Assembly: GCA_951406725.2 (NCBI GenBank)
Contig: OX597824.1
Span: 31,620,001 to 31,684,000 of the forward strand
DNA: 64,000 nucleotides
Origin: Octopus vulgaris
Taxonomy: Eukaryota
Reading direction: 5' to 3'
Below the pieces are notes generated by a model. It was not told the DNA's origin. It worked only from the letters and a program-made list of their open reading frames with translations, and searched no databases. This document shows positions 8,620-31,046 of this stretch, piece after piece; the stretch's first letter is position 1, and every line of letters starts with the position of its first letter. The translations under genes and the position numbers were made by a program.

Positions 8620-9122
8620 TACATTCTCTTTTACTTGTTTCATTTATTAGACTGCGGCCATGTTGGGGCACCTCCTTGAGGAATTTTTTGTCGAATGAAT
8701 CGACAGCAGTACTTATTTTTTGTTAAGCCTGGTACTTATCATATTAGTCTGTTTTGCCGAACCGCTAAGTTACGGGAACGTAAACACACCAACGCCAGTT
8801 GTCAAGCGGTATGAGACAGACAGATACAAAGACGCATATACACAATATGGACATTATGCCTTTTTGACATAGTTTCGTTTATGGTCTCCAGATTTCCAAC
8901 TGGTTGTTCAGCAATTTCCGTAAAGGACGGGCCACTTTCAGTCTCCGGGTACTTGTATCGCAGAGTGGTCCCGAGTACCCAGTCTCCGTCTACCAAATTC
9001 ATTCACAATGCTTTGGTTGGCCCGAGGCTATCGTAGAAGACGCTTGGCCTAAGGTGCCACGCAGAAGGACTGAACCCAGAACCATGTATTTGGGAAGCAA
9101 GCTTCTTACCACAACTGCGCCT
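8620..9122 (-). mobile_element. tRNA-derived SINE, interrupted by small insertions
   Basis: Similar to the copies at 17490-17893 and 18408-18808. Confidence 0.75.
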
Positions 9123-9974
9123 AATTCATTATAATAATGTACCAACTTAATTAAAAAATATAAATAAATATGGAAGTATATATAAATATAAAGACCGGCT
9201 TTTTATTGATTTAATATATTTGTAACGTCAACTACAATATGTATACTTTTGCACAGAAAACAAAACAAGAAATATTTAAACGGTTGTCTTCTTTCATTCA
9301 TTCTAATTTTCTCTCTCAACAAACCACTGACCCAATAACTAGAAACTATTTTACTTTCATTTTTGTCTAAATAGTTTATATACATTGTTTAAACTTTAAT
9401 CAAATGTTACGCTGTTCAAACATTGAAATATTTGTCCTACAGAAGGCACACTACATCGATGCTGAATAAATAAAGTCATCACAAAATTAGTTTATTTCAG
9501 TGATAAACGAAGTGGACCAAAAAATCAACATGGTCTTTTAGCTTCTCTTGTTATATACCAACTTGAACATATTTCGTAACTACTATTTTTTTCTAACCCA
9601 GATCAATAAGTTATGACTAATAACTACGATCGATAACAATTGTGATTTTCACTGGCCATCTCAGTACCGTAAGCTATAGTATAAAATAAAAAGCATCTCG
9701 CATACACACACACATGTATATACATGTGTGTGTGTTGCCTCATAACTTTCGAAACAATTGATATTTTTCTATGAAATTTTCTACAGAAACGCCCCAGATG
9801 GTGTAGATCCTCATTATATCGGAATATGTGGTGTTAAAAGTTTTTCCGAAGGTGGAGAGAGGTGTTTCGGAAAATTCTCACGAAACGGCTTTCTTTACTC
9901 GTAACTTTCAGAAAAAGATACATGGCTCGCACCCGCTTTCGTTGTTTTTTTTCTTTATTTTTTTATTATTATTC

Positions 9975-10592
9975 AACAGGAACCCACTATTTCGACTGCG
10001 GAGATTCCGAATCTGCAAAAAAAAAATCGGCATTTCAAAATTTAAACTTTGAAACAGGAGAGAAAACACTTTCAGTTTAATAATTATACTTTGTCACAGA
10101 ATCGCGGGCGTGGGGAGGGTTTTTCTTTAAATCGAAGTTTTACCTCCCCACCCCTCAGAATCATATTCTCCGTACTTTTAGGCATTCCTTCGATATAACT
10201 CGACAAAAATCAAAACATTTCACTTCGGGTATTTCCGTGGGTTTGTGGAGTATAGATATAACGAAATTATGCCAGCAAATGCCTCATTTTAAACTTTAAA
10301 GAAAAAAAGCCTTGCATATTTGTTCTTACATGTTTCATGTATGTGTGAAAAATCCGCAAATTTCTAAGCAGAAAACAGAATCGAACTGTCATTTGCTTCC
10401 ACGGAAATACCCAAAGTGAAATGTTTTGTTTTTGTCGAGTTATATAGAAAGAATGCCTATTTTTATATGTATTTCGCCAAAAAAAGAGAAAAATGAAGAA
10501 ATTGAGAGTTTGGGGTTAAATTTTGAAATGCCATTTTTGGGGGGAGGGGGGTGCAGATTCGGAATCTCCGCAGTCGAAATAGTGGGTTTCCT
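9975..10592. repeat. Nested inverted repeats (foldback element); paralogue at ~38190-38825
   Basis: acccactatttcgactgcggagattccgaatctgca vs tgcagattcggaatctccgcagtcgaaatagtgggt; inner pair 10181-10240 vs 10398-10459. Confidence 0.8.
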
Positions 10593-12519
10593 CAGAAAAA
10601 AAAAGGGGTGTGGTCCATGTATTTTACATCCGCGATAAAACACTAAGTAGTTACTTCATAACTTTCAGAAAAAGCGATACTTTTCAATGAAGTTTTCAAA
10701 TTACGGTCGCATCGGAATTTGATGAGAAGATGGTTCTTAGTTTCAAATTATTTTTTTTTAAATCTTCGTTTTAAAATATAGACAGTCCGATTCTGTCATT
10801 AGTTTCGCTTTATAATTTCCAAATAATTTTTTAAATACTTCGAAATCAAAATTGAAAAGTTTTAAACAATCGCGCATGCGCATGGCCTACAGTTATTGTT
10901 CAGTTTGGTTTGATTAAAAAAGTAAATAAAAGTTAAGGGGGAGATAAAAGAAGCATTCTTTACTTTACAATCGATCGGAATGGCACGTGGGACACCAGCA
11001 GCACCGCGATTCATTGTTCCTGAACGGGCGGCGAGCTGGCAGAATCGTTAGCACGCCGGGTATTTCGTCTGCTGCTACGTTCTGAGTTCAAGTTCCGCCG
11101 AGGTCGACTTTGATACACGTAAATGAATTTTTAAGATAATAAATGTGATTTTAACATATCATTGAGTATTAATATTGCTTTCAAATTTTGGCATAAGGCC
11201 AGGAGGAGTATCGACTACATCAACCTTAGTGTTCAACTGGTATTCAGTTTATCGACCAGGAAAAAAGGAAAAACTAAGTCAACCTCGGTAGAATTTGAAC
11301 TTAGAATGTAAGAGTTATAGTCCTTGGACCACAACCAAGACTGCATACATACATTTTCATGAGTATTAAGTCTTTCCTAAATTCCACCGCCAAAGTCAAC
11401 TTTATCTTTCATCCTTTCAGGGTCAGTGAAATAAATACCTATTGAGTACTGGGGTTGATGTCATCGACTTAGCACTTCCTGCAATTTTTGGGCCTTGTGC
11501 CTATGAGAAAGGATTATTATTATTATTGAGAGAGCTGCACATGCCATCAAAGTGACACTGGGGTACAAATATATGAAACCCAATATACCCATCATGACTA
11601 CCCATCTCATAAGGCTACACCAGACACATGCTTCACAACCATAAGTGCGTCATAGCGATCTCATATCAAGATAACCAGCACATGACCTTGCAGGTGGAGC
11701 CCATCCCACTCAAAAGGTCCTTGGATAAGGGTTGTTTAAAGATGTTGAAAAACACCCATGTTTCCAGAGGAGAATTATTCAAGCCCCAAAGAATTCCTCT
11801 CAACACATGCTATGATGCTCCCCCACTACTTCTACACGTGATCAGAACTGCATGTATCATCAGTCACTAAGGGACATGCTCAACTGATTAAGGTCAAACA
11901 ACTGACAGGCAAATTATTATTATTATTTGATGTGTTAAATTTTTTACAGCGCTAAGCTGACAGAATTGCTAGCACACCAGACGCTTAGTGGCATGTCATC
12001 TGTCTTTATGTTCTAAGTCTAAATTCCACCTGGTCAACTTCGTCTTTCATCCTTTCAGGGTCAATAAAATAAGTACCGGTCAAGCACTGGAGTCAACCTA
12101 CTCAACTCCTGGTCCTGTGCCAAAATTTTAAATCATTATTATTTGAAAGTTGCCAGCTGGCAGAATCATAGGCACGCTGGGCAAAATGCATAGCAGCATT
12201 TTGTCCATTTTTATGTTCTGAGGTCAACTTCTGTCAAGGTCAACTTTGCCTTTCATCCTGTAAGTCACAATAAGATAAGTACCAGTTGAACACTGGAGTC
12301 AATGTAATCAACTTAAACCCCACCACCGGAATTGCTGGCCTTGTTCCAAAATTGGAAGCCATTAATGTTATATTCATAAACGTAAGTGTGAGTCCCATTT
12401 GCAGTTTTCAATATTTTTCTATCCAAAGGTTTCTTATCTCAGTATTCCGCATACTATCATTTATAGTTTTATCAACTTCACGTTCTACCATTAAAACGAT
12501 ATATAATGTGTGTGTATAA

Positions 12520-13520
12520 TCATCATCATTTAACGCCTGTTTTCTATGCTGGCATGGGTTAGCCAGTTGACAGAACTGGAGAGCCAGCAGCTGCACCAGG
12601 CTCCACTCTGATCTGGCAATGTTTCTACAGCTGGATGCCCTGCCTAACACAAATCACTTTGAGAGTGTAGTAGGTGCTTTTTACATGCCACCGGCACAGG
12701 AACCAGTCAGGTGGGCTTGGCATCAATCATGTTCAGATAGTGCTTTTTACATGCCACAGGTATGGGAGTCAGTCAGGCAGATTTGGCATCAATCATGTTC
12801 TGATATTGCTTTTTATGTGCTGCTAGCACAAGAGCCAGTCAGGGGCCACTGGCATCAGCCACATTCAGGTGGTGTGCCAGTGGACCTGGCATCAACCACA
12901 TTCAGATGGTGCCTTTTACATGCCACCGGCACAGGAGCCACTCAGAGGGCACTGGCAACGACCACATTCAGATGGTGCATTTTACATGCCACTGGAATGG
13001 GAGCCAGTCAGGGGGCACTGGCTACAGCTACAATTGTGGTTTTACTTGACTCAACAGGTCTTCTCAAGCATATCATATTGCCTGATACATCAAGGGTACT
13101 CTTAAATGGGCCAGACATGTAACACTAGCATCGGCCATGACTGAAATCTCACTTTAGTTGCCAGGTCTTCTCAATCACAGCATATCTCCAAAGGTCTTGG
13201 TCTCCTGTCATTGCATCTGTGAGGCCCAACGTTTGAAGGTCATGCTTCACCACCTCATCCCATGTCTTCTTGGGTCTACCTCTTCCACAGTTAGGGTGTG
13301 GCACTTCCTCACACAGTTGTCCTCATCCATACGTAACATATGATCATGCCAGCGCAGTCGTCTCTCATGCACACCACATTTGATGCTTCTTATGTCCAAC
13401 TTTTCTCTCAGGGTGCTCACGCTTTGTTGTGCATGCACACTGACATTACACATCCAGTGGATCATACTAGCTTCATTTTTTTCAAGCCTACGCATGTCCA
13501 GCACCCAACACAGCATAGCA
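12520..13520 (-). mobile_element. RTE-clade LINE 3' remnant with ~60-bp tandem repeats in the 3' UTR and a (GAT)n tail; paralogue at 43053-44053
   Basis: RRLRWHDHMLRMDEDNCVRKC resembles the RTE RRLRWxGHVxR motif; repeated tgcttttacatgccac...gagccagtcagg units at 12675-13020. Confidence 0.8.
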
Positions 13521-13605
13521 TGTGAGCTTGCTAGTTTTCTTTTACTAACTAATTTGAAATTTTTTTTTCTTTTATTTTTAGATAAGCTTCACATAACCAT
13601 CAAAA

Positions 13606-13782
13606 ATGATTGCTGGTTTCCAGTACATGGCTATGACCATAACGGGAGCGTTTCATTTGGGTATTGGAATTTTGTGTTTCATTATTTCAATGGTGGGATT
13701 TTCAACAAAAATATTACAGTACCAACCCATTGGACATTTGTCTAATGTTACCTCTGCTGCAGCATGTATTGTAAGTCTATGG
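13606..13782 (+). CDS. Copy A coding exon 1 (TM1, loop 1, start of TM2)
   Basis: Acceptor ttttag ends at 13581, AAAATG start at 13606, donor TGG|gtaagt at 13783. Confidence 0.85.
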
Positions 13783-16700
13783 GTAAGTACTGATTTTTAC
13801 ATTTCTCTATCCTAATAAGGATGGTTACATAACTAATATCGGTTTTTATGACAACTATATACTTTTCAAAAATATATGGAAATACACCTAAATTTTTCGA
13901 ATCTTTTTGGTTTGAACGGCAGTTTTTTCTAGCGGTGTCATATGAAATTGTCACCCATAGTTATGACCCTAGTATCGATCTATTGCATTTCAATCTGTTT
14001 TAGGGTGGGAGGGAAGGGTGTCTTTTTTCTTCACAAATGTAAATAAACCCAATCTGTTTTTTAAACAAGGGACATATTCATACGGCACAGAATGTTTTTT
14101 ACCTCAATGGACGTCAGTGATTGGTTGAAATTGCAGAAATTGAAGAAAAAAATACAACAAATATCTTGCAAACTATAGAATTTTCCCAATATAGCCAAGA
14201 GAAAAAGATGTTTTATAAACATGTTCTACCAGTATATGAAGTTTAAAATTTTTTAGTTACCTAGAAATTATGTTAAAAACTGCTGTTCAAACCGAAAAGA
14301 TCCAATTTTTCAGATAATACTCATAAAAAGCAACCAGTACACTTTGCAAAGTGATTGACACTGGGAAGGGCATCCAACTATAGACACCATGCCAAAACAG
14401 ACAATAGAACCTGGGGCAGCTCTTATCAAATCGTCCAACTCCTGCCAACATAGAAAATGATGCTTCTGTTTTTGTTATCTCATGCTTAACTATTGTTTTG
14501 TGAAATGTTTGCTTATAGCAATGAATATTGGAACTTTGCATAGAATAGTGTTTGGAAATTCTCTCAACCTTAAACTGCAAATAAGGTATTTTATAGCAGA
14601 TATGAAGCACTTTAAAATGTATTGCTTTACTACAACAAAGAGTAAATAAATGCCCATAGATGATAATGTTCTCAACTGTGTATGTTTTATTTAATATTTT
14701 TTCTCAGTATCTCATATTCTATCATTATACACAATTATAATCATCTTTGTCATTTTAACATCCCTTTTTGGGGTTTGATGGTTCAACATAAACTGGTGAA
14801 TGAGGGGACTTTGTTGAGCCCCAATGTCTTCTTTGGCATGATTTCTATGGTTGGATGCTCTTCCTAATGTCAGCTACTTCACAGAGTGTACAGAGTGCTT
14901 TTTTCATGGCACCAAGCACTGGCAAGAACACCAGGTACCCCCAAAGTGAGTGGAGTGGAGTACTGAGCAATATAAAATTCATCATCATCATCGTTTAACG
15001 TCCGCTTTCCATGCTAGCATGGGTTGGACGATTTGACTGAGGACTAGCGAACCAGATGGCTGCACCAGGCTCCAATCTTGATTTGGCAGAGTGTCTACAG
15101 TTGGATGCCCTTCCTAATGCCAACCACTTTGAGAGTGTAGTGGGTGCTTTTACGTGCCACTGGCATGAGGGCCAGTCAGGCGGTAGGGCAAAGGTCACGG
15201 GAAATCGTGTTTTTTTTTTACATGTCACCTGCACAAGTACCGCTAAGGCAACGCTGGTAACGATCACGCTCAAATGGGGATTTTTACGTGCCACCGGCAC
15301 GAACGCCAGTTGGCTCCTCTGGCAACAATCACGCTCAGATGGTGCTTTTAGTGCTCCATTAGCACAGATGCTAGTCAGCGAATTTGATTTCGATTCCGAT
15401 TTCACTTGCCTCAACAGGTCTTCGCAAGCAGTGTCCAATGAAGGGAAGGTACGCAAAGGTGGGCTGGTTGCACCCTTGGCTCTGCGATAATTCCCTTCCT
15501 CATCAGCTTCTTTCCCAGATCTTTGATTTTTTCCTCTTTAAACTGGCTTTGTTTGCTTATTTCCTTGTGTAATATCTGCTTGAATGTTTGCTTGTGAACA
15601 TCCTAATTACTACATCATCCCTCTCAGGGACAGATTTATACACCCTAACAATGATTGAAACACACTTCCAATTACTCAGTAATTAAGTTATGTGGGTTTA
15701 GAAAAAGAATCAAGTCAGTTATAGGAGGATAACGTGTTTGTTCACTGCTTGATTAAAGGATTTTTTTACAAATTTTATCGGCAATAGTGTTTATTGTTTC
15801 TGTGCAACTGACACAAAGTCTACTATTATGTGTGCATAGTTTATGATATGTACACAATTAAATGACCATTTTACTGGAGGAATTAGCATCCTGTCTGTCT
15901 GCTTACTAGAATTTTGGTTTCTGCTAAATTGATGTTGAAGCCCTTTAAATCCAGGTTTTGCTTCTACACCTGGAATTTCTTTTCTAATTCTACTACAGAT
16001 TCAGTTTAAATAACAAGATTAGCAGCAGAGAGGAGTTCCGTGGACAACCAGCCTTAAACTCCTCTGTTATAGCCTAAAAGATAAATAGGAGAAGACTGAG
16101 AATCAAACCCTGGTGAGCTCCTAGCTGCACATTAAATTTGTTGCTGTACTTATTAGCTTTCACTGTGTGGACAACACCCTCGCTTCTTCAGCAACCATCA
16201 CATCAGAAAGCAAGAGATTTATTTGCTTTCTCTATGTCAATAAATGCCAAGTGCAGCAGATTACATTTGGCTAAATACTTCTGCAGTTGCCTTACTAGGA
16301 AGAAAGCACCAGCTTCACTTCTTACTCAGCTAACTCACTAGTATATATATATATACACACACACACATATACATACATACATTAATTAATTAATTAATTA
16401 TCTGACTATCTTATCTTAAAATTTTACATTTAATTGTACATTTTTTGTTTTGTTTAGGTTATCGCAGTTGGCATCTTTGGAATTCTTGCTGGTCTCAAGT
16501 CAAATACAGAATTACAAACCAGGAGAATGGTAAAAATTTCTCTGACTATTAATCTTTTCTGTTCAAATTTTCAGTCTGTTTAATGTTTACAATTAAAAAG
16601 CATCTAGTTATTACTTATCAGAAATAGTAACACTATAGAAAATGCTATATTTATCCAGTTTTCCAGTGGTAGACCATGCTCTTGGCAGAATTAACAAATA

Positions 16701-19700
16701 CTAGTGTATTACTTACAAATGTTGGAGTGCATTTGGCTAGAGTATTTTACAGCTGGATGCCCTTCCTGTCACCAACTCCACTTGCTTCCGAGCAAAGGAA
16801 TTATTTTTCAGTCTGTCAAGTAATAAACAGCACAGCTTGCTCAATATATCAAGACATGTCAAAAACCCCAATATGTTCTCCTGGTGGTCTGCAAGCAAAC
16901 AGCACCATCAGGATGTTATTGTTTACTAATGTGAGGGAAATACGAATTCACAGAAACACATGCACATGTGTGAGTATATATACATATATATTCTCCCATA
17001 GCTTTCAGTGTCAACATCCCATTCAATTTATTCAGCTTGGATGTGATATTTTGGTCCTACAAAAGATTTGCAAACCAGTTCACAGATCAGGCATGCATGT
17101 GTGGATTATAGGACAATGTTGCTGCTCTTCTTGGTAATGTTTTTGTGCTACCAAGAATCAAAGTCATGATCTTAGTCACGTGTTGAGTACGCTAACCACT
17201 TAGCCATGCTCCTTCACATCAGCTGCTACCCATCACAATTATGCTGTCATTACAACCACTTCTGAGCTGTGAATGTAAAGCAACAGCTACCGCTGCTCAT
17301 TATCATTAAAACAGCCTGTTTTAATCAAACCACCACCAAGCTGTATATTTTTGCTATAGTTGTGTCATTATACCACTTTTAAATTGTCGTTCCAAGCATA
17401 ACAGAGCTGTGTCATAACAAACTCTGAGTGCTCATTACAAACACTATTGAGGTAGTTGTACGCAATGTTACGTGTGGCACTCTCTTTTACTCTTTACTCT
17501 TTTACTCGTTTCAGTCATTTGACTGCGGCCATGCTGGAGCACCGCCTTTAATCGAGCAACTCGACCCCGGGACTTATTCTTTTGTAAGCCCAGTACTTAT
17601 TCTATCAGTCTCTTTTGCCGAACCGCTAAGTTACGGGGACATAAACACACCAGCATCGGTTGTCAAGCAATGCTAGGGGGACAAACACAGACACAAACAC
17701 ACACAAGCACATATATATATACATATATACGACGGGCTTCTTTCAGTTTCCATCTACCAAATTCACTCACAAGGCTTTGGTTGGCCCAAGGCTATAGTAG
17801 AAGACACTTGCCCAAGGTGCCATGCAGTGGGACTGAACCCAGAACCATGTGGTTGGTAAACAAGCTACTTACCACACAGCCACTCCTGCGCCACAGGTGC
17901 TTCAAAAGTAAAAGTGTGTCCCTGGAAGACCTGCCATGAGCATCACCCATGGAAATATGGTAATGTGCATCAAGAATTTGTCCTCCAGGGCCAGACTGTC
18001 AATTGAGAGTTCTACTGTGATATTTTTAAGCGTTTGAGGGAGGACATTTGACAAAAGCAACCAGACCTGTGGAGCGCAAAGAATTGGATTCTTCATGACA
18101 ACAATGTGCCCTGTCATCAAACTCTTCTCACTTTTGAGTTTATTGCCAAAAACATGGTATTGCTTCCACACGCTCTTTTCACCAGATTTAGCACCTGCAA
18201 ACTTCCATCTCTTCCCCCAAGATGAAAACGCTGCTCAAAGGTTGCTGTTTTAACACCATTGTCGAGACCCAGTGCAGATCACAGAAGGGCCTCAACCCAC
18301 ACACAAAAAATGACTTCCAGGTCAGATTCCCAAAAGTGGCAGAAATGCTGGGACCAGTATATTGCTGTACAAGGTGGCTATTTCAAAAGAGATGATGTTA
18401 AAATGTATGAGTGGCTGAGTGGTAAGTAGCTTGCTTACGAACCACATGGTTCCAGGCTCAGTCCCACTGCATGGCACCTTGGGCAAGTGTCTTCTACTAT
18501 AGCCTCAGGCCGACCAAGGCCTTGTGAGTGGATTTGATAGACAGAAGCTGAAGGAGGCCCATCGTATATATGCACATATATATATATATATGTAAGTGTT
18601 GGTGTGTGTATGCTTGTATTTGTCCCCTCGACATCACTTGACAACCAATGCTGGTGTGTTCACATCCCCGTAACTTAGCTGTTCGGCAAAAGACACCGAT
18701 AGAATAAGTACTAGGCTTACAAAGAATAAGTCCTGGGGTCAATTTGCTCAACTAAAGGCAGTGCTCCAGCATGGCCACAGCCAAATGACTGAAACAAGTA
18801 AAAGAGAGTAAATTAGTTATTTTTTATTAAACATAACTAGCCAAGGAACCTTTTGATACCCCTCGTACTTATGATCTCTGAGGAGTGAAAGACAAAGTTA
18901 GCAAAGAATGGTATCATTTGTGACTTTCTGCCACAGATCACATAAAATATTAGATTCTCCTCTCTCTCTGACAAAAGATAATAGATTTCCTGAGATATGA
19001 ACCTAAAAGAAAAATGTCATTTGCCTAACACCATTCCTTCTATGATAAACAGTATTTTCTTTAATATACTCAGAAAAGATAATAATTTGATAGAATCCAT
19101 TAGAGTGACTATGTGCTACCTTCCTGTATTTAGTTACGTCCTGGGGCTCAGTTAAAAAAAAGGATCAGTCATGGATTGGTATTATAAATAACTTTTATTT
19201 TTATAATCGGTCTATTTATCAATGAATAAATCTGCATCTCTAGTGCTAAACAGATCTGTTTTTCTCTTTTTGACTCAAACTCACACATGCACATATCCTT
19301 ACCCCCATGTGTGTATGTATGTGTCTATATACCACCACACATACATAACTGTAAAACCTAAATAAAATGCTTTAAATTTTTTTTTTTTTTTTCAGAAAAT
19401 TACCTACATGGTCCTTGCCATTTTGTCAGCATCTATATTTTCAATTGGTGGAATGAGTGCCCTTTCTGGCCATGCAACTTGGATTGTAAGTATATTATAT
19501 GTGTGTTTGTTTTTTGTGCAGAGATTACTGATGCCTAATGAAGTAAGGTACTTTATATGATGGGGAAAAATCAGAACAAAAGCAATTATACTTCTTAGCT
19601 GTCTAGAATAAAAGACATTGTAACTTAATTATTGTTCTTGGTTTTTGGATGAACAGGTTTTCTAATGTTATTTCACTATCATACCTTTTATCAAAACATT

Positions 19701-22075
19701 TTAAACTTTGTAACTATGGAGCCTTTTTCAGCTATATTAGGAAAATATCTTGTAACAGACTTTATAAAAAAGAAAACAACCCTTTTAATATTCTTTCAGA
19801 TAAATAAACTGTAAAAAGAGCCAAATAATGGCATGGCTGTGTGTTAAGAAGTTTCCTTCTCAACCACTGCATTGCATGTTGGGCAAGTGTATTCTTCTAT
19901 AGCCTCGGGCTGACTGCAGGCTTGTGAGTGGATTTTATTGATGGAAACTTAAAGAAGTCTATCATATGTGTGTGTGTGTGAACTTTAGGTTTGTTAAAAT
20001 ATGTTTGTGATATATGACTTCTAAAGGCAAATTCATTGTAGTTACCCTGGAGAAACGAAGTCTCTCCAAGAGGTGTGAAAGCACCATATCTGCCCAGTGC
20101 TTCTCCGTATCAGATTCCCAGACACACATTTCTGGCTCTTTAGCCTTCCTCAATGGAAAATACCAGAGAGAGATAACCCTGGGCAGATTCCAAACCTGTT
20201 TCTTTTAGTTAACTAAAAAAACAGTCAACATCAGTGACTGATTTGCACTAGTGGACCAGCTGGTCTGAATAAAAAATAGCATCAGTACCAAACAGTGATT
20301 AGGAAGATCTTTAGATTATGGCTCTAAACTTTAACATGAGTTGAGCATGGCTGCAGGCCATTGACTGAAACTAGTAAAAGAATCTTTTTAAAAATCAACT
20401 CTATTTAATATAAAGTTAGTTGACCTAGTGATTGTGCCCTCAATTCTTGAATCAGGTAGCACATTGTGTTCTTGAGCAAAACACTTCATTTTATGTTCCT
20501 CCTGTGATGAAATCGCATCCCATTCAGGGGAAATGTTTTGATCTCAGTCCCTTATATGCTTTGGAAACTAGATAGCTGGTCCTATGACTCAGTAGACAGC
20601 AATGTGCAACAGTTGATGGTGGTGTTGTGGGATTGTTCTGGACATAGCTGCAGACCAATGACTGAAACTGGTAAACGATTAAGTGACTACATTTATAACT
20701 TTTAATACCAATAAAGATTATCAAAAATGCAAAGTCATTGCTTGAAAAATCTGAAAAGATAACCCTGTACTGTAAGATTATCACATATTTCTTTCACTTT
20801 TTCTCATTAAAAATTATTTGTTTTACAGGCAATGTCTTCTCGTTATGACAGTTATTATCCTTTATTTTGTGTTGGATCCTTTGCTATGTTTGCGGAATTT
20901 GTTTTGGCTATTGTCTCTTCATCCATTTGCTGCTGCTGCTCACAAGCAAAGGTAACTATAGTTTACTCATTTGATAAATATAATTGTGTAATAAGAGGCA
21001 AAGTTCATTCCATTTACATCCTAGATTTGGAAATATTTTGTGACTTCTGATCTATGTCCCTGCCATAGAACAGGTTACATGATGTTGAGATTCCATGTGT
21101 GACATCCAACTCTGTAGGATACAAGATTCGGGTATAATTCTGTTTTCAGAACCATAAAGAGATAGGTGAAAAGGGAAAATAAAAAATCCAAAACTAGATG
21201 GGAAATGGGGAGTATATGATATGGTAGAGAAATAAGCTGTAAAGGTAGTGCTCAAGGTTACATATCAGGAGATAGTAGGATTATGGTGAAAGGAAAAAAA
21301 TACATGAAGATGGAGAACATGATGTTGGACATCATGCAGGCTTACCATTTGACCTCCATTTTTTGCATTGCTGTTCTTATCCAACAAAGGGTAAAATTAA
21401 TTAATTAAGAAGTAATCAATAACTTCACCAAGTAGAATTCGGCATGAAAAACTTTCACGGTAAACTTAAGTAATACTTTATAATTAGGGTTCAGCAAAGA
21501 TATGCTTTACCACATACCAAAGTTTATAAATAGTTTTTCTGGGAGTTCCTTTTTAAAGTAGAAGAAATAGCTAAGGTTTTTTGGCTGCTATTTCTAAACT
21601 TTGGTATGTGGTAAAGCATATCATTGCTGAACCCTAATTATAAAGTATATATATGTATATATAGAGACAGGAGAAATTATGGTAAACACAAGTTTATATT
21701 ATTTGCTCCACTTCACTGGAAGATGATACTCTATATGCAGCTTTTAATTCAACAATCGCAATAGTACATCTAACTACACACAAGATTTACTATGTATGAA
21801 TGTCATTGAAAAATAGATGCAAATCAAGGTATTCTTTAATTTCTCTTGGAATGATTTTAGAGTTGTTTATTATTTTTTTGTTTCTAAAGAAATTCAGTAT
21901 TTCTTTAATAATTTTTTTTTCTTTGCTTCTACAGAGTAATGTAGTTGTTATCCATCAGAACCAGGCTACTGAATTCGTGAATCCGTCAATTAATACACAC
22001 TACTCACCAATTACTCATTATTCTCCAAATGTTGCTGACCCATATATGCCTCAAGAATTCAATGAAATGAAATAA
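13606..22075 (+). CDS. Four-transmembrane MS4A/CD20-like membrane protein, copy A (200 aa; join 13606-13782,16458-16529,19396-19485,20829-20951,21935-22075)
   Basis: Manual splicing: each exon has a polypyrimidine-AG acceptor and GT donor, all phase 0, joining into one open frame MIAGFQ...ACIVSLW/VIAVGIFGILAGLKSNTELQTRRM/KITYMVLAILSASIF...ATWI/AMSSRYDSYYPLF...AEFVLAIVSSSICCCCSQAK/SNVVVIHQ...EFNEMK*. Four hydrophobic helices, W-x-I-x-x-G-x-x-G-I in TM2, E-x-x-L-A-I-x-S-S-x-x-C-C at the end of TM4 and a Pro/Tyr-rich tail match my recollection of the CD20-like pattern. No HMM search was run. Confidence 0.85.
13899..14303. mobile_element. MITE with 8-bp TSD (AATTTTTC), Merlin- or hAT-like, intronic
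   Basis: ~29-bp TIRs; AATTTTTC at 13891-13898 and 14304-14311. Confidence 0.85.
14978..15430 (-). mobile_element. RTE-related 3' UTR/SINE-like repeat; paralogue at 45541-45985
   Basis: catcatcatcgtttaacgtccg..ccatgctagcatgggttgg end shared with 12520-12700. Confidence 0.7.
16458..16529 (+). CDS. Copy A coding exon 2
   Basis: tttgtttag|GTTATC...ATG|gtaaaa; 72 nt, phase 0. Confidence 0.82.
17490..17893 (-). mobile_element. tRNA-derived SINE; paralogue at ~48055-48457
   Basis: Reverse complement begins ggcgcaggagtggctgtgtggtaag (A-box) and has ggttcagtccc (B-box-like); tail of agagtaa repeats. Confidence 0.85.
17900..18400 (+). mobile_element. Decayed mariner transposase C-terminal remnant; paralogue at ~48465-48965
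   Basis: Fragments HQEFVLQGQTVN, WILHDNN and SPDLAPANFHLFP, with frameshifts. Confidence 0.7.
18408..18808 (+). mobile_element. tRNA-derived SINE, inverted relative to 17490-17893; paralogue at ~48972-49370
   Basis: gagtggctgagtggtaagtagcttgc...ggctcagtcccactgc...gactgaaacaagtaaaagag. Confidence 0.85.
19396..19485 (+). CDS. Copy A coding exon 3 (TM3)
   Basis: poly-T cag|AAAATT...ATT|gtaagt; 90 nt. Confidence 0.85.
20829..20951 (+). CDS. Copy A coding exon 4 (loop 2, TM4, CCCC)
   Basis: ttttacag|GCAATG...AAG|gtaact; 123 nt. Confidence 0.85.
21473..21648. mobile_element. 176-bp hairpin MITE with ~60-bp arms in the last intron; paralogue at 52005-52180
   Basis: atactttataattagggttcagcaaagatatgctttaccacatacc vs ggtatgtggtaaagcatatcattgctgaaccctaattataaagtat. 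Confidence 0.8.
21935..22075 (+). CDS. Copy A coding exon 5 (cytoplasmic tail, stop)
   Basis: tttgcttctacag|AGTAAT...AAATAA. Confidence 0.8.
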   Translation, partial: SNVVVIHQNQATEFVNPSINTHYSPITHYSPNVADPYMPQEFNEMK

Positions 22076-23018
22076 ATTTTTTCATTTTTTGTGAAATTGA
22101 GAAATGTTTGAAAAGCATGAAACAGTTTAAAAATTCTTTTTTTTTTTTTTAAATTTGTATATTCTCACTATTCAGTAAAACTGACCAGAATCTCTTAATC
22201 AACATCCCTGTTGTCTACTCTCTCTCTCTTTCTCTCTCCATATATGTATGTATACACACACACACAAACATCTACATTCAAAAAAGCCTTAGCATCGTAC
22301 TATTGTCACTGAAGCTGACCCTATTACGATAACCATCTGTGCTATTTTACTGTTAAAGTAATTGTCAAGGTTTTTAATATCAAATCTTATTTACCATACA
22401 TAATTACACTACATCTTTGTTTGTACTAACTGTCCCTAACTTTTAGTAATGTTTAAATGTACTTACTTTACTAGTGTCATTGAAAAAAATGTTTATTGTT
22501 CTCATTTCTGTGAGATATTTCTAGTCCATACTCACTGATTCATTTGAAGTTGTTTTTTTTTATTGATGCTTATTTTTGTTATTGTTTTCTTTTAAAAACA
22601 CTTTATTTCCTGTTGCTCCATTTCACTCAGTTGTAGAAAGGAGTTACGATGTCACTGGTACCAATCTGTATCGGCCTTTGCCTTTCCCTTGATAACATCA
22701 GCGACGTGGAGAGGGGAGGCCGGTATACATAGGTGACTGCTGGTCTACCATAAACAACCTTTCCTGGACTTGTGCCTTGGAGGGGAACTTTCTAGGTGCA
22801 ATCCCATGGCCATTCCATGACTGAAAGGGGTCTTTACCTTTTATTCTATTATGCTTTGTAGTTTGTACAAAACTTTTTATATTACCTTGATGCTTTTTCC
22901 TTTCTTATTTTATTTGTAATTTCCTGCAAAGAATCTGCTACTGCCTGATTCTATTAGCAATATCACTACAAATATTTTTGTCTCTCTAGTTGTCCTTTTA
23001 ATTGTATTTTTGTTACCA

Positions 23019-23024
23019 AATAAA
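23019..23024 (+). other. Candidate polyadenylation signal of copy A (paralogue at ~53577)
   Basis: AATAAA ~950 nt after the stop, followed by GT/T-rich sequence; weak evidence in AT-rich DNA. Confidence 0.3.
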
Positions 23025-23488
23025 TACATTCATAAAATCATTTAAATGTCATTGTTTATTTATTTAGCATCATTGAATATGCTTTTCTTGAAATATCAAT
23101 TAACTATTGCAGCATGGAAGGTGTTTATAAGCCATTTAAGAAACACACAAAAGCCGTTCGATTCACTTCAACATTTAAGTTTAATTTGTCAAAATATTTT
23201 CGGCGCTAAAATCTGCGACCTGTTCACTGACAAAAATCCGTGCTGCATCTGTTTCAGCACACGATCTCAGATCAAATTACTTGCTATGCGAGTACATCTC
23301 AATTAACTATTTAAATCAGAATACTAAATTATATTTCTATATCTTTGATATATGTTCAATAACAAATTATTCACGTATTCATCTTGTCTTGGTTAAATGT
23401 TATATACACACATACATACATTGCAGTTTGTTTGGTATAATTTCAACCATTATTTGGCATTTTTCAAAGAAAGGCATTTTATGAAATA

Positions 23489-23792
23489 CTAGCTGTATCG
23501 CCCGGCGTTGCTCGTGTTTATAAGGGAAATAACTATATAAGCATTTTTAGAGAGTTACTTCCCTTATATAACCCGAACAAAAATCATTAAAAATGCGGAA
23601 AAATGATAAATTTTTTTTTAAATCGTAGACTCATCATAGATGCGCGCTAATACCCAGAAGGGCTCGATGTGAATGACGACTATAAGATACCCGCTTTTGG
23701 TTAAACTGCACCGCAAAATGTGGGAGTAGTTAGGAATCTAAATCGGAGGAGACAGAGTCTCACACACACAACTTCGATTTTATATATAAAGA
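23489..23792 (-). mobile_element. Non-autonomous Helitron (~300 bp); paralogue at 54047-54350
   Basis: Minus strand 5' TC(TTTATATATAAAA) to a GC-rich subterminal motif and CTAG 3', inserted between A and T without TSD. Confidence 0.75.
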
Positions 23793-24622
23793 TTTTCTCA
23801 CAGAAAATGCATGCTCTTACATTCCAGAATACAACACAAAGCAACCTTTATATGGTCCATGAGACTGCTAGAAATAGCAACAACTTTCTTTTTATCAACC
23901 ACTACAGATATTTTATTAATGTGACCGAGTTAGAGCAAACTGTTCATCAAGCACATTGTCTTCCTACTTTCTGATCCACTGATGTGTGATGCTGCAGCTC
24001 TCCACTCCTGTGCCACCTCCTCCTCCATCCTGCTGTTTACCTTCCACCACACCTCCACCTTTTTTCTTCACTCATTACATCCGCATTTGACCATCTGTCT
24101 CTCTCCTCCCCCACGCTTGTTATGAAGTTACTCTACCCTTTCCTCCCTTCCTGATGCACAGTTTTTATTCTCCCTCCTATACACTTTGTACTTTGTGTGC
24201 ATGCTCTCATACCCTGTCACCATGACCTTTATCTCCCTTTCAGCTACTCTCACCCACCATCACATAATGTATGGTAATTGTGTATCTCATCTATAGCAAG
24301 ATTCATGTGCTTGTCCCTCTTTCATACTTTAGCCTTCAACATCTGACAAAGCCAACTCCTCTCATACTTTCCATTTCCTTTTCCTTTCTTTAATTTGCTG
24401 CAATTTACAGAGCTGCCTCATCAGTGCATGAAAAATGTCACCCGGTACTCACCAGAGTGGTTGGCATTAGAAAGGGCATTGAGATGGAAACCACAGCAAA
24501 GCTGATGCAACTCTACTCTGCTGCTTGTCAGATCCTGTCAAATTATCCATCCCATGCCAGCATGGAAAACAAGTTAAATGATGATGATGAGGATGATATA
24601 TATATGTGCGTGAGTATGTATG

Positions 24623-24653
<31 letters not shown>

Positions 24654-24665
24654 ATCACTGTATGG

Positions 24666-24700
<35 letters not shown>

Positions 24701-24701
<1 letters not shown>

Positions 24702-26295
24702 TAGCAGAGATACCCGGCGTTGTTCAGGATTAAAATGGTGTAGTTTGAAACAGGTGATACAGGAAAGTGCAGCATTGACGATACAACATTTGTGGAGTAA
24801 AATTTAAAGCTTTTGCAGAAGCAACAATTTCAGTTTAGCTCACCAATTTGGATAGAATTATAATTCTTATAAGAATAGGATGGATCATATCTGAAAGCAG
24901 CACCAGGAGTTGTGAAGAACAAATTTGTATGTGGCCTGTTTCTGAGAGCTATTCTATTGGACCTCTGTGTAATCTGGCATGCTAAATTTTTATTTTAGTT
25001 ATTCAGCATTAAGTGCTGCAGTATACTTTTGTTGATTTTGAGAAAGTCTTAACTCCCTTCTCTCTTGAGATTCCATCTGACGTGCTGCAGCATGGCTTTG
25101 CTGATCTTGAGAAAGTCTCATGTCCCTTATCTTTTGAGTCTCTCGCCTTCAGGCTTTTTTCAATCCTCATTGCTTGATAGGTGTTTCTGGAGAGATTACG
25201 TTCTTTCTTTGGTGGCAAATTTTTTTTTCCAATATCATAAACAAAATATTATGATTATAGAAAAAATATACATTAATCCCTATTTTTGTAAGTAGTTGTA
25301 TGTATGTAGTATGTCTGTATTTTTGTATAAAGTGTAAAGTAACCAAATATAAGCAAATTGAAATACCTTGCAACTGTTGCGATAATTATGAACTGGTAAT
25401 TGAATGGTAGATGTGTATCTTTATATACCTTGGGCGTGCCACCTGATTGTTTTTTGTCAAGAGTTTCGCCTCCAGCCATTCGCATCACATATATATATGC
25501 ATGTGCAGATGTGTGTGTGTTTAATAATGTTCACAACGAACGCATACACCCACACATTCATATACAAAATGTGACGCTATACATACTTACACTCTCACGT
25601 AGTCATATACATATAGTAAGAGAGACACAAGCATACATTCACACATGCCAGTCATCACATATATATATCTGTATGTGTAGATGTGTGTGTATGTCGAATA
25701 ACGTACCTAATGCGGAAACACAAGTCACAGAGACATACTCATACACCCACACACATACACACTCATATACAAAATGTGACGTTGTCATATTATAAAATGT
25801 CCTTTACTATCTCGTACGTATCGAACACGCAAACACCCACACACAGACACTCATGCAAAAAGTGATGTTGCCGAACGCGGAAGCACACATACACATTAAT
25901 ACACACACATAAACAAAATGTGACGTCGTCATCATCGTGGTATAAAATATCTTGTACTATATTTGACTATAGAAAGATTATCTATAAAATGTTACATTGT
26001 TTTAATTGAAATGATACTCATATCATACCCCATGAGTCTTATCACATTAGGATTAAAAATGAAAGAATAAAAGCGAAACAATATTCACTTATAACACATA
26101 ATACCAAACCAGTGTAAAAGATTGCTCCGGGCCCGCATTAAGTAAGAAGTTAAAAGTTTTTTCGTCCATGACACTCCATGAACCCTAAGTAATACATGTG
26201 TAAAATTTGAATGAAATTGGTTGGGTACTTCTCGAGTTTTAGGGATTCACACATACAGATAGACAGATATACATTCTCAGTATTATATAGATAGA
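24701..26295 (-). mobile_element. Helitron-derived element; paralogue at 55253-~58531 hosts the Tc1 insertion
   Basis: Minus strand TCTATCTATATAAT start and gcaacgccgggtatctctgCTAG-type end; internal CA/TA-rich repeats; basic MPPKKERNLSRNT fragment. Confidence 0.6.
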
Positions 26296-26779
26296 TCTGT
26301 GTGTAGTCTGATCAGTAAGTATCCAGATTGTTGCCATAGTAACGAAACTAAAGCACACAGAGTGAAGTCACTTGGCACATCGACCTTGAACTCTGATGTG
26401 CATGTACACATACACACACGCGCGCACACAAACATTCACATACCTTCCATTTACATACACAGAGTTGAAACGCTTCCACTACCAGTTTGCCTTTACCTCT
26501 TCCTTCTTTATTCATCTATCACCCCTTCCTTTTTCATTCATACGTTGTGATGGAGAAAAACACAAGAGTATTATTATAGTAGATTATCTTTCTCGTATCT
26601 CGTATCTCCGCAGCATCTTTGGTTACTATGGAAAAAGAGTTTTTCCACACGGCGATGTGTAAAATACTTGCTTCTGATTGGCTAAAATACCCAAATTTTA
26701 AAGGCTAACCACTTTTTAGTTATGGATTTATAGGAAAAATTAATTTCGTTTTCATAATTAGTATACAAAACTTAATCCA

Positions 26780-27720
26780 TATATCAAATTAGAAAACAAT
26801 TGGAACAAAATTGTAGATAGTAACGAAAACCACAAAGATCCAAGTTTTGTTTATACTCCTTAATGGTGATAAAGGCATTCCTCTTAGCTAATACTTCTAC
26901 CCTATCGGGTATATGTAGATTGTTGGGTAACTGTTTGGCTTCAATGTTAATGTTGATGTATGTGTGTGGGGAAACGCGTCCATATTTCTGCGTTATGTTG
27001 TCTTCTAAAAGTTCTATCGTATGTGCTTGTATCAACCTTATAAAGTTTTTTTAGTTTTATCGGAAAAGAGTAAGGACCTGACAGAGATTTTTAGCAGTCG
27101 TAAGTCAGAGCGGAGTTTGATCTGAAATGAGTAAGGGCCTTACCGAATCTCAACTTTGGGATGATACCCAGTAGGTCTGCTTCGAAGGTTTCGCGGTCTT
27201 TGATTCTAGATGGGAACCTCCAGCACTTAATACCGTACGCGCTGGCTTCTGAGAATGGCGTGCGTTGATTGTAGAAGTATGCCTTCCATCTCATCCGTCC
27301 TATGAGGTTGATAATCTTTTCGAGCAGCATTTTTTTGTAAAGTTCGTTTGATGGTGTTGGTATATTTGTTGTCGAATAATCGAGATCGTATAACTCCATA
27401 GTACCCATGAGACAGTAGCCTTCGTGATTATGCAGAGGTGCTCAGCCAACGGTACTGCGCTAGAGCACAAACCACCTGGCGCCCTTTTGTAAATTGCTCC
27501 GCAACCGAGGTGCGTTATGAATATTCAGTTGTTCATATATCCGAAAAAGAAGCACACGCTAAAGCATTAAATCAGTAATATATTTTTTAGGAAGTTAAAT
27601 GTTATCTTACTTCAGTTGTAGAGAAGTTATGCGCCATCGGCCATTTGAATCTGACGAGTCACCTATACTGCTGAGCTCTTTATAGATGAGAAACCAATGA
27701 CCGACCATAACATTATATAT
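26780..27720 (-). mobile_element. Penelope-like retroelement 5' ORF remnant; paralogue at ~59085-59970
   Basis: YSTTNIPTPS, RMRWKAYFY, FEADL and AFITIKEYKQN resemble the N-terminal pre-RT region of PLE ORFs (from recall). Confidence 0.65.
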
Positions 27721-28089
27721 ATATAAACGGTCCCAATCACGAGTCACTTTTAGGTCACTTGACCATTTAACATCCAACTACTATCATACCACTCCTGCGT
27801 TATTCTTCTCCTTCTTCTTCTCTGCCAAGAATTCACAACGATCTCGAACCCACAAGAGAGACAGAGACAGGCAGAAACAAGGAAAATGCCCCTTGTATTT
27901 GAATACTATGCAAATATTCTTTTTAAACAACTTTTCATTTAATTTTTCCAAAATTTAATTGTTTTCCATGCTTACAGTTGAAGTAGCCTCAGTGATTGAA
28001 ACCAGTACTAAAATGTTTCTTATAAAATTATTTCAGTATTTTCTACCTTGACTCAAATCTTATCTCTTTGACTGAACTACAGTCCTAGA

Positions 28090-28760
28090 TCAAACATACA
28101 CCGAGGAAGAGCGCCGGGCAGCTAGAATGTCGTCAGGCGCTCACACTCCTCTGACACTCAGGTAATGCGGTCGGTGGAAGTTCCATTATGGCTTTCTATA
28201 GAAGGTTAGTGGCGGGTAAGTGCGACGACGTTCTTGGAGAGATTCTGGGCGTAGACAAGAATGAGCTGACTGGTCTGTTCTGGGGACTTTTCGGGCTGGG
28301 GCCAATGGATAATTTCCAGAAAGTCTTGGCCTGGCAGTGCTACTGGAAGGAGCTGTCTGTTCGAGATAAACTCTACTGTCACAAGTGCAGTCAGCCGGGC
28401 TTGCCCGAGATGCGTGCAGGGTGACGAAACCGTTCTGCACGCTATCGTCCAGTGCCCGAGTATTTCTGACTTGTGGGTTTATGTCGAACAGCAGGTGTTT
28501 GACATTAACCCACCTTTTCACTTGAAAAGGAAAATTATGTTGGAGAGGGAAGTTCTTCCCCCCAGCAATTTTGTTAAAAGGTGGGTGAACGTCGCAAGAA
28601 TGGTCCGAGTGAATAGGCCTACTCTAAGCATACGCCTGTAAACAAAGTGGAAAGGGCACTTACCCTGGTGATCAGGAATGTTGTAGACTCATGGGGCTTT
28701 CACAAGTAATCCTAGGAGGGCTCCCTCTTTTGGGGAAGTTTGTTATATTCGATTGTTTTT
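28090..28760 (+). mobile_element. L1/Tx1-like LINE ORF2 C-terminal remnant; paralogue at ~61710-62380
   Basis: LAWQCY..L.VRDKL and a CPRC..GDETVLHAIVQCP zinc knuckle; frameshifted. Confidence 0.75.
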
Positions 28761-29488
28761 GATTTAATTGTTTACAAGACTTTATCACTAGTTCTGTTTA
28801 CTAAAAGTGGCCCACTTGGCACCGTGCATTGTATTTTTCCTGTGTTGTTCATAAAAGGGTATACATAAGTATACCCTTAATTGTTAATAAAGAAATCATC
28901 ATCATCATCTTCATCATCTTCATCATCCACATCATCATTTCTACTCTTCCTCAATAACAGGAATAAAGAAAACTATGACTCCACTTCAGTTTCTTACGAA
29001 ACAGAACTGATTCACTTATCATTTTACACTCAACAATTTCGCTTTATTACATCGCTTGATGCTTACATCAACAATTTAAGCCTATTTCTTCTCTCGACCA
29101 AAGTGAAAGAAAATCGAGAGTATACTCTAAATAGTTGTTTAGTGGTAATCTGTAATTGAGGATTGGTTGGTGCTACTTAATTTCCTTGGAACAATCCCAT
29201 CTTGTATCGGAAGTAAACACATCACGTTAGATATCACTGCTTCCATTGAACAATGAGAAAAAATGTAACTGTTGTCTACGTCAATAAAACACTTGTATAT
29301 TACAAATGCTAAATTTCACAACATTCTTCAACCATAAGCTCATAAAAGTATCGTTCTCTCTTTGCTTCTTCTGTTGTACAACAACAACCTCTTCTCATCG
29401 GAACTATCTGCACACACTCAGGTCTCACATGAATCATTTCACCCAGTTTTTCTTCCTCAGATTGCAATCACACAGGGTGAGGACCTGC

Positions 29489-29896: not shown

Positions 29897-30019
29897 AGGG
29901 TGAGGACCTGCCTGCAAAGATCATGGTCACTTTCGGTCTTTCTAACTTTTAAATGAATAAAAATAATCTACATATTCATCACTGTTAAATAAGTTTTATT
30001 TGTAACCAGATCAGAGACA

Positions 30020-31035: not shown

Positions 31036-31046
31036 GAACGCTAGTA

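What the first reader, a model, noticed from the sequence alone, without database searches (positions are those of the whole stretch)
13582..22075. Hidden 5-exon four-TM gene invisible to the ORF track
Seen: five short exons spread over 8.5 kb of TE-rich intron join into a 200-aa protein with almost no N-terminal tail, four TM helices, short loops and a ~50-aa tail. It is the only host gene I can support in the window. Inference: a divergent invertebrate MS4A/CD20-like member, possibly part of a longer array, since copy B runs off the window.
Basis: partly seen in the sequence, partly recalled or inferred. Interest (0 to 1): 0.7.

Follow-up and report, generated by a model that had tools for sequence, protein, structure and literature searches.

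The report
Octopus CD20-like gene pair, fast-evolving loop
This is a real octopus gene, already listed in databases as 'uncharacterized', for a small four-pass membrane protein distantly related to human CD20; a second copy next door has quickly changed its outward-facing loop, as receptors that recognise chemicals or pathogens often do.

Summary
The gene is real. Five GT-AG, phase-0 coding exons give a 200-aa protein identical to an NCBI Octopus vulgaris 'hypothetical protein'. So it is hidden from ORF lists, not from annotation.

It is a divergent homologue of the CD20/MS4A-like superfamily. It misses the Pfam cut-off and lacks the TM2 W-x-G motif. However, its family profile reaches CD20-domain proteins (44 of 80 scanned), a second-round profile ranks FcεRIβ and CD20 first in the PDB, and intron 2 falls where human CD20 has one.

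Correction: copy B's coding exons lie wholly inside the window (44140-52623); only the duplicated block runs off.

New here: A and B differ by 1.1-1.4% in non-coding DNA, yet B has 7 missense and 0 silent changes within 37 bp of outer loop 1. The O. bimaculoides orthologue sides with A at 11 sites and with B at none. This suggests diversifying selection on a ligand-facing surface; whole-gene dN/dS alone is not significant.

Most likely a cell-surface recognition receptor, chemosensory or immune; ligand, tissue and signalling are untested. No paper linking MS4A/CD20 to cephalopods was found.

The parts
13582..13605 (+). Copy A: 24-nt 5' UTR part of the first coding exon, after an AG acceptor, with an in-frame TAA before the ATG (implies an unlocated upstream non-coding exon)
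   Evidence: sequence
13606..13782 (+). Copy A coding exon 1 (aa 1-59): TM1, outer loop 1, first half of TM2
13715..13751 (+). Divergence hot spot: 7 missense, 0 silent differences between A and B (codons 37-49); the nearest other A/B differences are at 13420 and 13899. B loses the N47 glycosylation sequon
16458..16529 (+). Copy A coding exon 2 (aa 60-83): second half of TM2 and basic inner loop; its 3' intron matches human CD20 c.336|337
19396..19485 (+). Copy A coding exon 3 (aa 84-113): TM3
20829..20951 (+). Copy A coding exon 4 (aa 114-154): outer loop 2, TM4 with conserved E136, Cys147-150 cluster
21935..22075 (+). Copy A coding exon 5 (aa 155-200 and stop): disordered tail with three Tyr
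44140..44316 (+). Copy B coding exon 1 (7 missense differences from A, at 44249-44285)
47032..47103 (+). Copy B coding exon 2 (L72H)
49957..50046 (+). Copy B coding exon 3 (S99T, G101V, S104I, one silent change)
51357..51479 (+). Copy B coding exon 4 (D120K, two nucleotides)
52492..52623 (+). Copy B coding exon 5 (T181I; stop at codon 198, three codons early; 197-aa product)
8974..37175 (+). Tandem duplication unit A (~28.2 kb)
37176..64000 (+). Tandem duplication unit B; at 64000 it corresponds to A 30320, so it runs off the window; carries three insertions absent from A
37072..37190 (.). Duplication junction: a (TA)n/(AATAT)n tract joined to the middle of a repeat element; no homology next to the two unit starts, no N

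Best explanation
The locus holds two tandem copies of a cephalopod-specific branch of the CD20/MS4A-like four-helix membrane proteins. Shown: the gene structure, the four-helix bundle and homology to CD20-domain proteins. Inferred from the positive-inside rule and homology: both ends face the cytoplasm, the Cys cluster after TM4 is probably palmitoylated, and the two short loops and outer helix ends form an extracellular face. Shown: copy A keeps the ancestral state, while copy B has about ten times more missense change in that outer face than its non-coding DNA predicts. Inferred: that face binds something, and selection has favoured a new specificity in B. Most likely mechanism, by analogy with vertebrate and ascidian MS4As: a small plasma-membrane receptor or receptor subunit whose outer face recognises an external molecule (an environmental chemical, or a microbe/parasite product) and couples this to Ca2+ entry or to a partner through its Tyr/Pro tail. 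My split: CD20-like homology about 0.93; outer face under diversifying selection about 0.7; chemosensory versus immune role unresolved, about 0.3 each.
For: Family profile against 1.84 billion proteins: 172 hits at E<=1e-3; of 80 scanned, 44 match PF04103, 33 above cut-off, and none reaches the cut-off of another four-TM family. HHalign of the cephalopod profile against 33 CD20-positive relatives: 99.89%, 174 columns. Second-round profile against 177,635 PDB sequences: FcεRIβ 1.3e-8 and 1.4e-7, CD20 8.6e-6; next KCNQ 3.6e-3; a tetraspanin 2.1. Atlas: CD20 clusters score 0.90, falling to 0.78 when PF04103 is excluded. Intron 2 (M83|K84, phase 0) aligns to CD20 L112|V113, a splice site documented as c.336+1. 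Inner loop has 4 K/R, each outer loop 1. Selection: outer segments 12 missense nt against 1.1-2.0 expected (P 2e-9 to 1.5e-6); inner/TM core 1 against 2.6-4.9; silent 1-2 against 2.2 expected; model-defined loop 34-44 alone P<=0.01 after correction; the outgroup matches A at 11 sites and B at 0 (p=0.001). Outer-face enrichment in 6 of 9 other family pairs. Precedent: mouse MS4A1 responds to odorants with Ca2+ influx (PMC11026480); ascidian MS4As show positive selection in extracellular domains (10.1101/2022.08.15.492342).
Against: No expression, ligand or signalling data at all. The protein and 24 of 24 family members miss PF04103. Foldseek found nothing at E<=0.001, and the best VIA Z (15.4 sarcospan, 14.7 FcεRIβ) is only 1-2 above unrelated helical bundles (13.3-13.6); sarcospan is a scaffold, not a receptor. 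Within the gene, the missense:silent ratio alone is not significant (7 of 7 in loop 1, P=0.095; 14-15 of 16 overall, P=0.16-0.046). Segment limits 34-49 and 97-123 were drawn after I had seen the differences, though hydropathy independently gives 34-49. 2 of 349 non-coding 39-nt windows have as many differences (one indel-linked site). 3 of 9 family pairs show no significant outer enrichment, and variable loops are common in membrane proteins. B has an early stop, and its O. sinensis counterpart is annotated with a shifted frame in exon 4, which would fit decay.
Confidence: 0.55

Rival explanations
1. The loop cluster in B comes from a short gene-conversion tract from a third, more distant paralogue, or from one complex mutation, and not from selection; B is a relaxed or decaying duplicate.
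For: Seven changes lie in 37 bp with no other A/B difference between 13421 and 13898. A comparable cluster exists once in intron 1, beside an indel. All-missense is not significant alone (P=0.095). B has L72H, an early stop and an apparently frameshifted O. sinensis counterpart.
Against: None of the 24 aligned family proteins has B's loop. There is no silent change and no indel in the tract. A second missense cluster lies independently in outer TM3/loop 2 (99, 101, 104, 120). O. sinensis changed the same site 42 to a different residue. Plain relaxation predicts about 1.3 outer changes, not 12.
Confidence: 0.2
2. A and B are the two haplotypes of one locus, placed in tandem by the assembler; the loop differences would then be a deep allelic polymorphism, possibly balanced.
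For: A/B non-coding divergence is 1.13% (non-repeated) to 1.37% (all), like the 1.22% heterozygosity reported for the O. vulgaris assembly (PMC10700109).
Against: No N in the window, and the junction is a base-precise new adjacency with no homology upstream of the two unit starts, which an overlap assembler would need reads to span. The O. sinensis gene shares B's H72, V101 and both D120K nucleotides (37 of 37 against 35 of 37) and groups with B (100/91), so the B lineage predates a 2.5-My split. This does not exclude old polymorphism.
Confidence: 0.2
3. The protein is a structural or accessory subunit (sarcospan-like scaffold, or FcεRIβ-like chaperone/amplifier of a larger receptor or channel). 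Its outer face changes because it contacts a fast-evolving partner or is a pathogen's docking site, not because it senses ligands.
For: Best structural matches are sarcospan and FcεRIβ; loops are very short; the tail has three Tyr, and 13 of 24 relatives have PPxY.
Against: Lineage-specific paralogue expansion on one chromosome with repeated outer-face divergence resembles receptor repertoires more than single-copy scaffolds (general knowledge).
Confidence: 0.25
4. It belongs to another four-TM family: claudin (the UniRef label of the O. bimaculoides orthologue), tetraspanin or MARVEL.
For: UniRef name 'Claudin' on P0003; weak tetraspanin hits in 3 of 24 members (best E 0.0017; 18.5 bits against a cut-off of 32.1); synaptogyrin, uroplakin and claudin-15 at Z 12-13.
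Against: No claudin family hit in any of 24 members; no Cys in either outer loop and no large loop; profile searches converge on CD20.
Confidence: 0.04

Closest known systems
Vertebrate MS4A family (CD20/MS4A1, FcεRIβ/MS4A2; mouse olfactory MS4As)
   Same: Four-helix bundle of similar length; profile homology over TM1-TM4; conserved TM1 Gly pair, TM2 Gly, TM4 Glu and a Cys just after TM4; phase-0 intron just before TM3; multi-gene clusters; variable outer face.
   Different: No N-terminal cytoplasmic tail; TM2 W-x-G replaced (I55-x-S57); outer loop 2 short and Cys-free; a run of four Cys after TM4; CD20's c.573 intron is not at the octopus intron-3 position; below the Pfam cut-off; no function shown.
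Invertebrate PF04103 proteins (gastropod CD20-like proteins of Elysia, Lymnaea, Biomphalaria, Physella; ascidian MS4As)
   Same: Nearest relatives by profile (E to 1e-19); shared TM3 and TM4-Cys motifs; ascidian genes show clustering, lineage-specific expansion and extracellular positive selection.
   Different: The cephalopod-type proteins form their own clade of 30 rows (100/99; midpoint root for drawing only), start at TM1 and have lost the motif that gives the Pfam match. Ascidian sequences were not compared here.
Sarcospan
   Same: Top structural match (Z 15.4, rmsd 2.5 A, 139 residues); weak sequence hit (E 0.032).
   Different: Single-copy muscle scaffold with a larger Cys-containing outer loop (recalled); 12% identity.

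Membership tests
Pfam PF04103 CD20-like | Score above the curated cut-off (27.9 bits) | tested here: not met
   No PF04103 match for P0001 at E<=10 or for any of 24 family members at E<=0.1
CD20/MS4A-like superfamily (homology) | Profile-level homology over the four TM segments | tested here: met
   44 of 80 scanned relatives match PF04103, 33 above cut-off; HHalign 99.89%; FcεRIβ and CD20 top of PDB
CD20/MS4A-like superfamily (homology) | Four-helix TM bundle with cytoplasmic ends | tested here: met
   Four helices, pLDDT about 90+ in the TM core; positive-inside pattern; orientation inferred, not measured
CD20/MS4A-like superfamily (homology) | Fold closer to MS4A/sarcospan than to other four-helix bundles | tested here: inconclusive
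   Top three VIA rows are sarcospan and FcεRIβ in both models, but only 0.4-2 Z above unrelated bundles; Foldseek E>=0.025
MS4A (strict, vertebrate-type) | TM2 P-x-W-x-G motif (motif as seen) | tested here: not met
   Aligned positions are I55 and S57; the family's conserved W59 lies four residues later
MS4A (strict, vertebrate-type) | Conserved TM4 Glu and post-TM4 Cys | tested here: met
   E136 and C148-150 at >=90% in 60 sequences; aligned to CD20 Glu and Cys
MS4A (strict, vertebrate-type) | Shared intron positions | tested here: inconclusive
   Intron 2 coincides with CD20 c.336+1, phase 0; intron 3 does not match c.573+1; a match of intron 1 to CD20 c.279|280 rests on recall only
MS4A (strict, vertebrate-type) | Orthology with the vertebrate family in a rooted tree | not tested
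   The tree held no vertebrate rows; PMC2826416 restricted MS4A to jawed vertebrates
MS4A chemoreceptors | Clustered, lineage-expanded paralogues with excess change in extracellular parts | tested here: met
   Tandem pair; paralogues on one contig per species; outer missense excess
MS4A chemoreceptors | Expression in sensory cells; ligand-evoked Ca2+ influx | not testable with these tools
   No RNA or assay data available
Tetraspanin | Large second extracellular loop with CCG and further Cys | tested here: not met
   Loop 105-124 has no Cys; best 18.5 bits against cut-off 32.1
Claudin/PMP22 | Large first loop with W-GLW-C-C signature and beta-sheet (signature recalled) | tested here: not met
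   Loop 1 is about 16 aa, without Cys or sheet; no claudin Pfam hit in 24 members
MARVEL | Pfam PF01284 cut-off (32.8 bits) | tested here: not met
   1 of 24 members, 13.6 bits

The most novel reading that the evidence does not exclude
These genes are an unrecognised cephalopod repertoire of MS4A-type, non-GPCR chemoreceptors, working alongside the known chemotactile receptors (recalled) in suckers or the olfactory organ. Copy B is a receptor caught retuning its binding face within the last ~2.5 My. That would carry MS4A-type chemosensing back to the protostome-deuterostome ancestor and give a natural pair, differing at about a dozen outer residues, for finding the ligand site of an MS4A-fold receptor.
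Probability: 0.25. Interest if true: 0.8.

Novelty: new member of a known kind. Interest (0 to 1): 0.45.

Why it matters
The gene model is in public annotation, but only as 'uncharacterized' or 'hypothetical' (one orthologue is labelled 'Claudin'), and Pfam misses the whole cephalopod branch. A 2010 survey concluded that invertebrates lack MS4A-like genes (PMC2826416); ascidian members were reported later. Full-length profile homology plus a shared intron argues for common descent down to molluscs, against that survey's suggestion of convergence. The A/B pair turns an anonymous gene into a testable one: the copies are nearly identical in the membrane core and differ mainly on the outer face, so expression mapping and a ligand screen can ask directly whether cephalopods use MS4A-type receptors. 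If it proves to be an accessory subunit or B is decaying, the finding is a useful re-annotation only.

Tried and rejected
Pfam on single exons: nothing (8 pieces, one PsbN hit at E 0.1). Pfam on full proteins: no family at cut-off. First-round profile against PDB sequences: 1 chance hit. Foldseek on both models: none at E<=0.001. Search for further paralogue exons in the window: only A and B. B's loop as a copy of a known paralogue's loop: no match among 24 aligned proteins. Using the Argonauta protein's name to decide whether O. sinensis LOC115216985 is an A-type gene: undecided (bit scores 180-185 for both types). The cluster-member look-up that could show whether O. sinensis has both copies could not be made, so that question stays open. 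Complex prediction (homodimer) was not available, so oligomer state is unaddressed. Literature: 'MS4A'+'octopus' 5 papers (4 listed; the two invertebrate ones, read as passages, mention MS4A only for vertebrates or Ciona); six LOC identifiers 0 papers (main text only, supplements not searched); 'CD20'+'cephalopod'+'octopus' 1 paper, where the word was CD209; some searches listed 20 of 4,822, 20 of 362 and 25 of 2,994 papers with nothing relevant. Subscription journals are largely outside the library, so absence from print is not established. and part of 42 had off-by-one coordinates or register, corrected.
Full report
OBSERVATION. The window is repeat-rich animal DNA (GC 31-48%). Reading from the ATG at 13606, five exons (13606-13782, 16458-16529, 19396-19485, 20829-20951, 21935-22075) join into a 603-nt frame of 200 aa plus stop; every intron is GT-AG and phase 0. 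Four of five acceptors are among the 101 of 3,566 plus-strand AG sites with at least 56% T upstream, and all four donors start GTAA (283 of 3,654 GT sites). A search with exon 1 alone returned a 200-aa 'Hypothetical predicted protein [Octopus vulgaris]' that equals the joined product letter for letter. The gene model is thus independently predicted and the window is almost certainly O. vulgaris; spliced reads were not available. Relatives begin at the same Met, and an in-frame TAA lies between the acceptor at 13582 and the ATG, so the missing N-tail is real and a non-coding 5' exon must lie upstream.

CORRECTION ON COPY B. Self-alignment shows a tandem duplication: unit A 8974-37175 and unit B from 37176 to beyond 64000, 95-98% identical in blocks. 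All five exons of B are inside the window with intact splice sites; B stops three codons early (197 aa). Only the block runs off. No third copy is in the window (166 proteins by tblastn, HMM on 2,793 frames).

FAMILY. Direct Pfam fails: no CD20 match for the protein or for 24 of 24 family members. The close family (25 proteins at E<=0.1) is named only from cephalopods: three Octopus species, Argonauta and a cuttlefish; 12 are unnamed. Its profile, run against 1.84 billion representatives, gave 172 hits. I scanned 80 of the 141 newly listed ones (the best-ranked, leaving out five short fragments): 44 match PF04103, 33 above the cut-off, and none reaches the cut-off of tetraspanin, MARVEL or any other family. 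Profile against profile with those 33 gives 99.89% over 174 columns. A 60-sequence profile ranks FcεRIβ (1.3e-8, 1.4e-7) and CD20 (8.6e-6) first among 177,635 PDB sequences, ahead of spurious KCNQ hits (3.6e-3); this profile contains CD20-positive rows, so it is a transitive test. Atlas neighbours are a mollusc cluster (0.92) and CD20 clusters (0.90; share 48-52%), and drop to 0.78 when CD20 is excluded. Two AlphaFold2 models (pLDDT 78.0 and 82.5) give a four-helix bundle with a disordered tail. Structure searches put sarcospan and FcεRIβ on top, but with Foldseek E>=0.025 and Z only slightly above unrelated bundles: consistent, not proof. Independent support comes from gene structure. Human MS4A1 has a phase-0 intron after codon 112 (c.336+1; PMC13626146, Table 1 passage). 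Numbering the CD20 chain printed with that table's residues places L112|V113 exactly on octopus M83|K84, the site of intron 2. CD20's c.573 intron does not match octopus intron 3. That intron 1 also matches (c.279|280) is recall only. The canonical TM2 W-x-G is replaced. I therefore file it as a divergent homologue of the CD20/MS4A-like superfamily, not as a PF04103 or strict MS4A member. In a tree of 48 rows the cephalopod-type proteins form one clade of 30 (100/99), apart from the CD20-positive rows (midpoint root; no vertebrates). Within each Octopus species the named paralogues share one longest-contig length, and three O. bimaculoides genes have near-consecutive LOC numbers, which suggests a cluster.

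TOPOLOGY. The loop between TM2 and TM3 has four K/R, the other two loops one each; loop 1 carries the only N-glycosylation sequon (N47; close to TM2, so it may be unused); four Cys follow TM4; the tail has three Tyr. This fits both ends inside, loops 1 and 3 outside, with palmitoylation after TM4 (inference).

THE A/B CONTRAST. Non-coding divergence over 11110-25491 is 188 of 13,687 (1.37%), 1.13% outside repeats and 2.12% inside. Coding: 17 nt in 15 codons, of which 13 missense, 1 nonsense and 1 silent. Seven missense and no silent changes fall in 37 bp of loop 1, with no other difference from 13421 to 13898; four more changed codons lie in outer TM3 and loop 2. Outer segments hold 12 missense nt against 1.1-2.0 expected (P<=1.5e-6), the inner/TM core 1 against 2.6-4.9, silent sites 1-2 against 2.2. 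With the stricter model-defined loop (34-44) and the highest intron rate, P is 0.0096 after correction; a clustering permutation gives 2.3e-4 (window chosen post hoc). The O. bimaculoides orthologue matches A at 11 of the 14 differing residues, B at none, neither at 3. The O. sinensis gene LOC115216986 shares B's H72, V101 and D120K nucleotides but not its loop-1 changes, and has its own change at site 42. So the B lineage is older than the 2.5-My species split (date from PMC10700109, passages), and the loop changes probably came later in O. vulgaris, unless O. sinensis was homogenised by conversion. B also loses the N47 sequon. Against selection: the missense:silent ratio alone is not significant (P 0.095 in the loop; 0.046-0.16 overall); 2 of 349 non-coding windows are as dense (one indel-linked site); outer enrichment holds in 6 of 9 other pairs, not all; a short conversion tract from an unseen paralogue is not excluded; and the O. 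sinensis record reads exon 4 in a shifted frame.

IS THE DUPLICATION REAL? A/B divergence equals the assembly's reported heterozygosity (1.22%), so uncollapsed haplotypes are a serious rival. Against it: no N, and the junction joins a (TA)n tract to the middle of a repeat with no flanking homology (one 52-bp match about 1 kb and 2.5 kb from the unit starts). I put a true duplication at about 0.8. If they are alleles, the loop difference is a deep polymorphism and still points to selection.

MECHANISM. Shown: gene, fold class, homology, localised missense excess. Inferred: surface location, ligand binding at the outer face, signalling. By analogy, mouse MS4A1 expressed in HEK293 cells gives odorant-evoked influx that needs external Ca2+ (PMC11026480: passages and Discussion). 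Ciona has 29 MS4A genes, nine enriched in palp sensory cells, and Botryllus paralogues show extracellular positive selection (10.1101/2022.08.15.492342: passages; bioRxiv supplements closed). I favour a recognition receptor (0.55), chemosensory and immune about equally; an accessory/scaffold role (0.25), conversion or decay (0.2) and haplotype artefact (0.2) are not mutually exclusive rivals.

PRIOR KNOWLEDGE AND NOVELTY. PMC2826416 (first fifth of the text plus passages) concluded that invertebrates lack MS4A-like genes and suggested convergence. PMC7776563 (passages) calls MS4A ancestry poorly known. PMC7067487 and 10.1101/2023.07.03.547492 (one passage each) mention MS4A only for vertebrates or Ciona. 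Searches for MS4A or CD20 with octopus/cephalopod and for the LOC identifiers found no description of this family; the library lacks most subscription papers, and supplements were not searched. Invertebrate PF04103 proteins are common in databases. Verdict: a new, Pfam-invisible cephalopod branch of a known kind, already annotated as unknown, with a good hint of recent adaptive change. Interest 0.45; 0.8 if it proves to be a cephalopod chemoreceptor family (probability about 0.25).

Noticed in passing
window 56043-57721: Tc1-like DNA transposon present only in unit B, with terminal inverted repeats (23 of 30 match at my rough ends); transposase lies in two ORFs (56595-57176 and 57231-57560).
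   Followed up: partly
window 60082-61592: Mariner-like transposase fragments on the minus strand, present only in unit B (Transposase_1 4e-17).
   Followed up: partly
window 39361-41645: 2.3-kb segment present in unit B and absent from unit A, starting inside a repeat element; not identified.
   Followed up: no
window 30092-32033 and 33901-34653 (minus strand): Retroelement remnants: a LINE-type reverse transcriptase (RVT_1 4e-13), an adjacent 328-aa frame that looks by eye like an LTR-element integrase end (no Pfam hit), and a 250-aa LINE C-terminal-like frame.
   Followed up: partly
window 14912-14946: The only non-coding A/B cluster as dense as the loop-1 hot spot; it flanks a 4-bp indel and looks like one complex event.
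   Followed up: yes
window 21965-21967 region vs CD20 (alignment); octopus residues 150-160: The residues right after TM4 resemble the CD20 segment after its TM4 Cys closely, and octopus intron 4 falls there; a nearby CD20 intron is recalled but was not verified.
   Followed up: no
P0007 (O. vulgaris paralogue, 268 aa): The annotated protein repeats the TM2-TM4 exons, suggesting a partial tandem duplication or fused gene model at another member of the cluster.
   Followed up: no
P0002 (O. sinensis LOC115216986 isoform X3): Reads exon 4 in a shifted frame relative to the window; assembly error or a real frameshift in the B lineage.
   Followed up: partly
P0003 (O. bimaculoides LOC106868669): UniRef names it 'Claudin', which the evidence here does not support.
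   Followed up: yes
window 17497-17885 and 18409-18806: Two copies of a short repeat in inverted orientation bracket a transposase-like fragment in intron 2.
   Followed up: no
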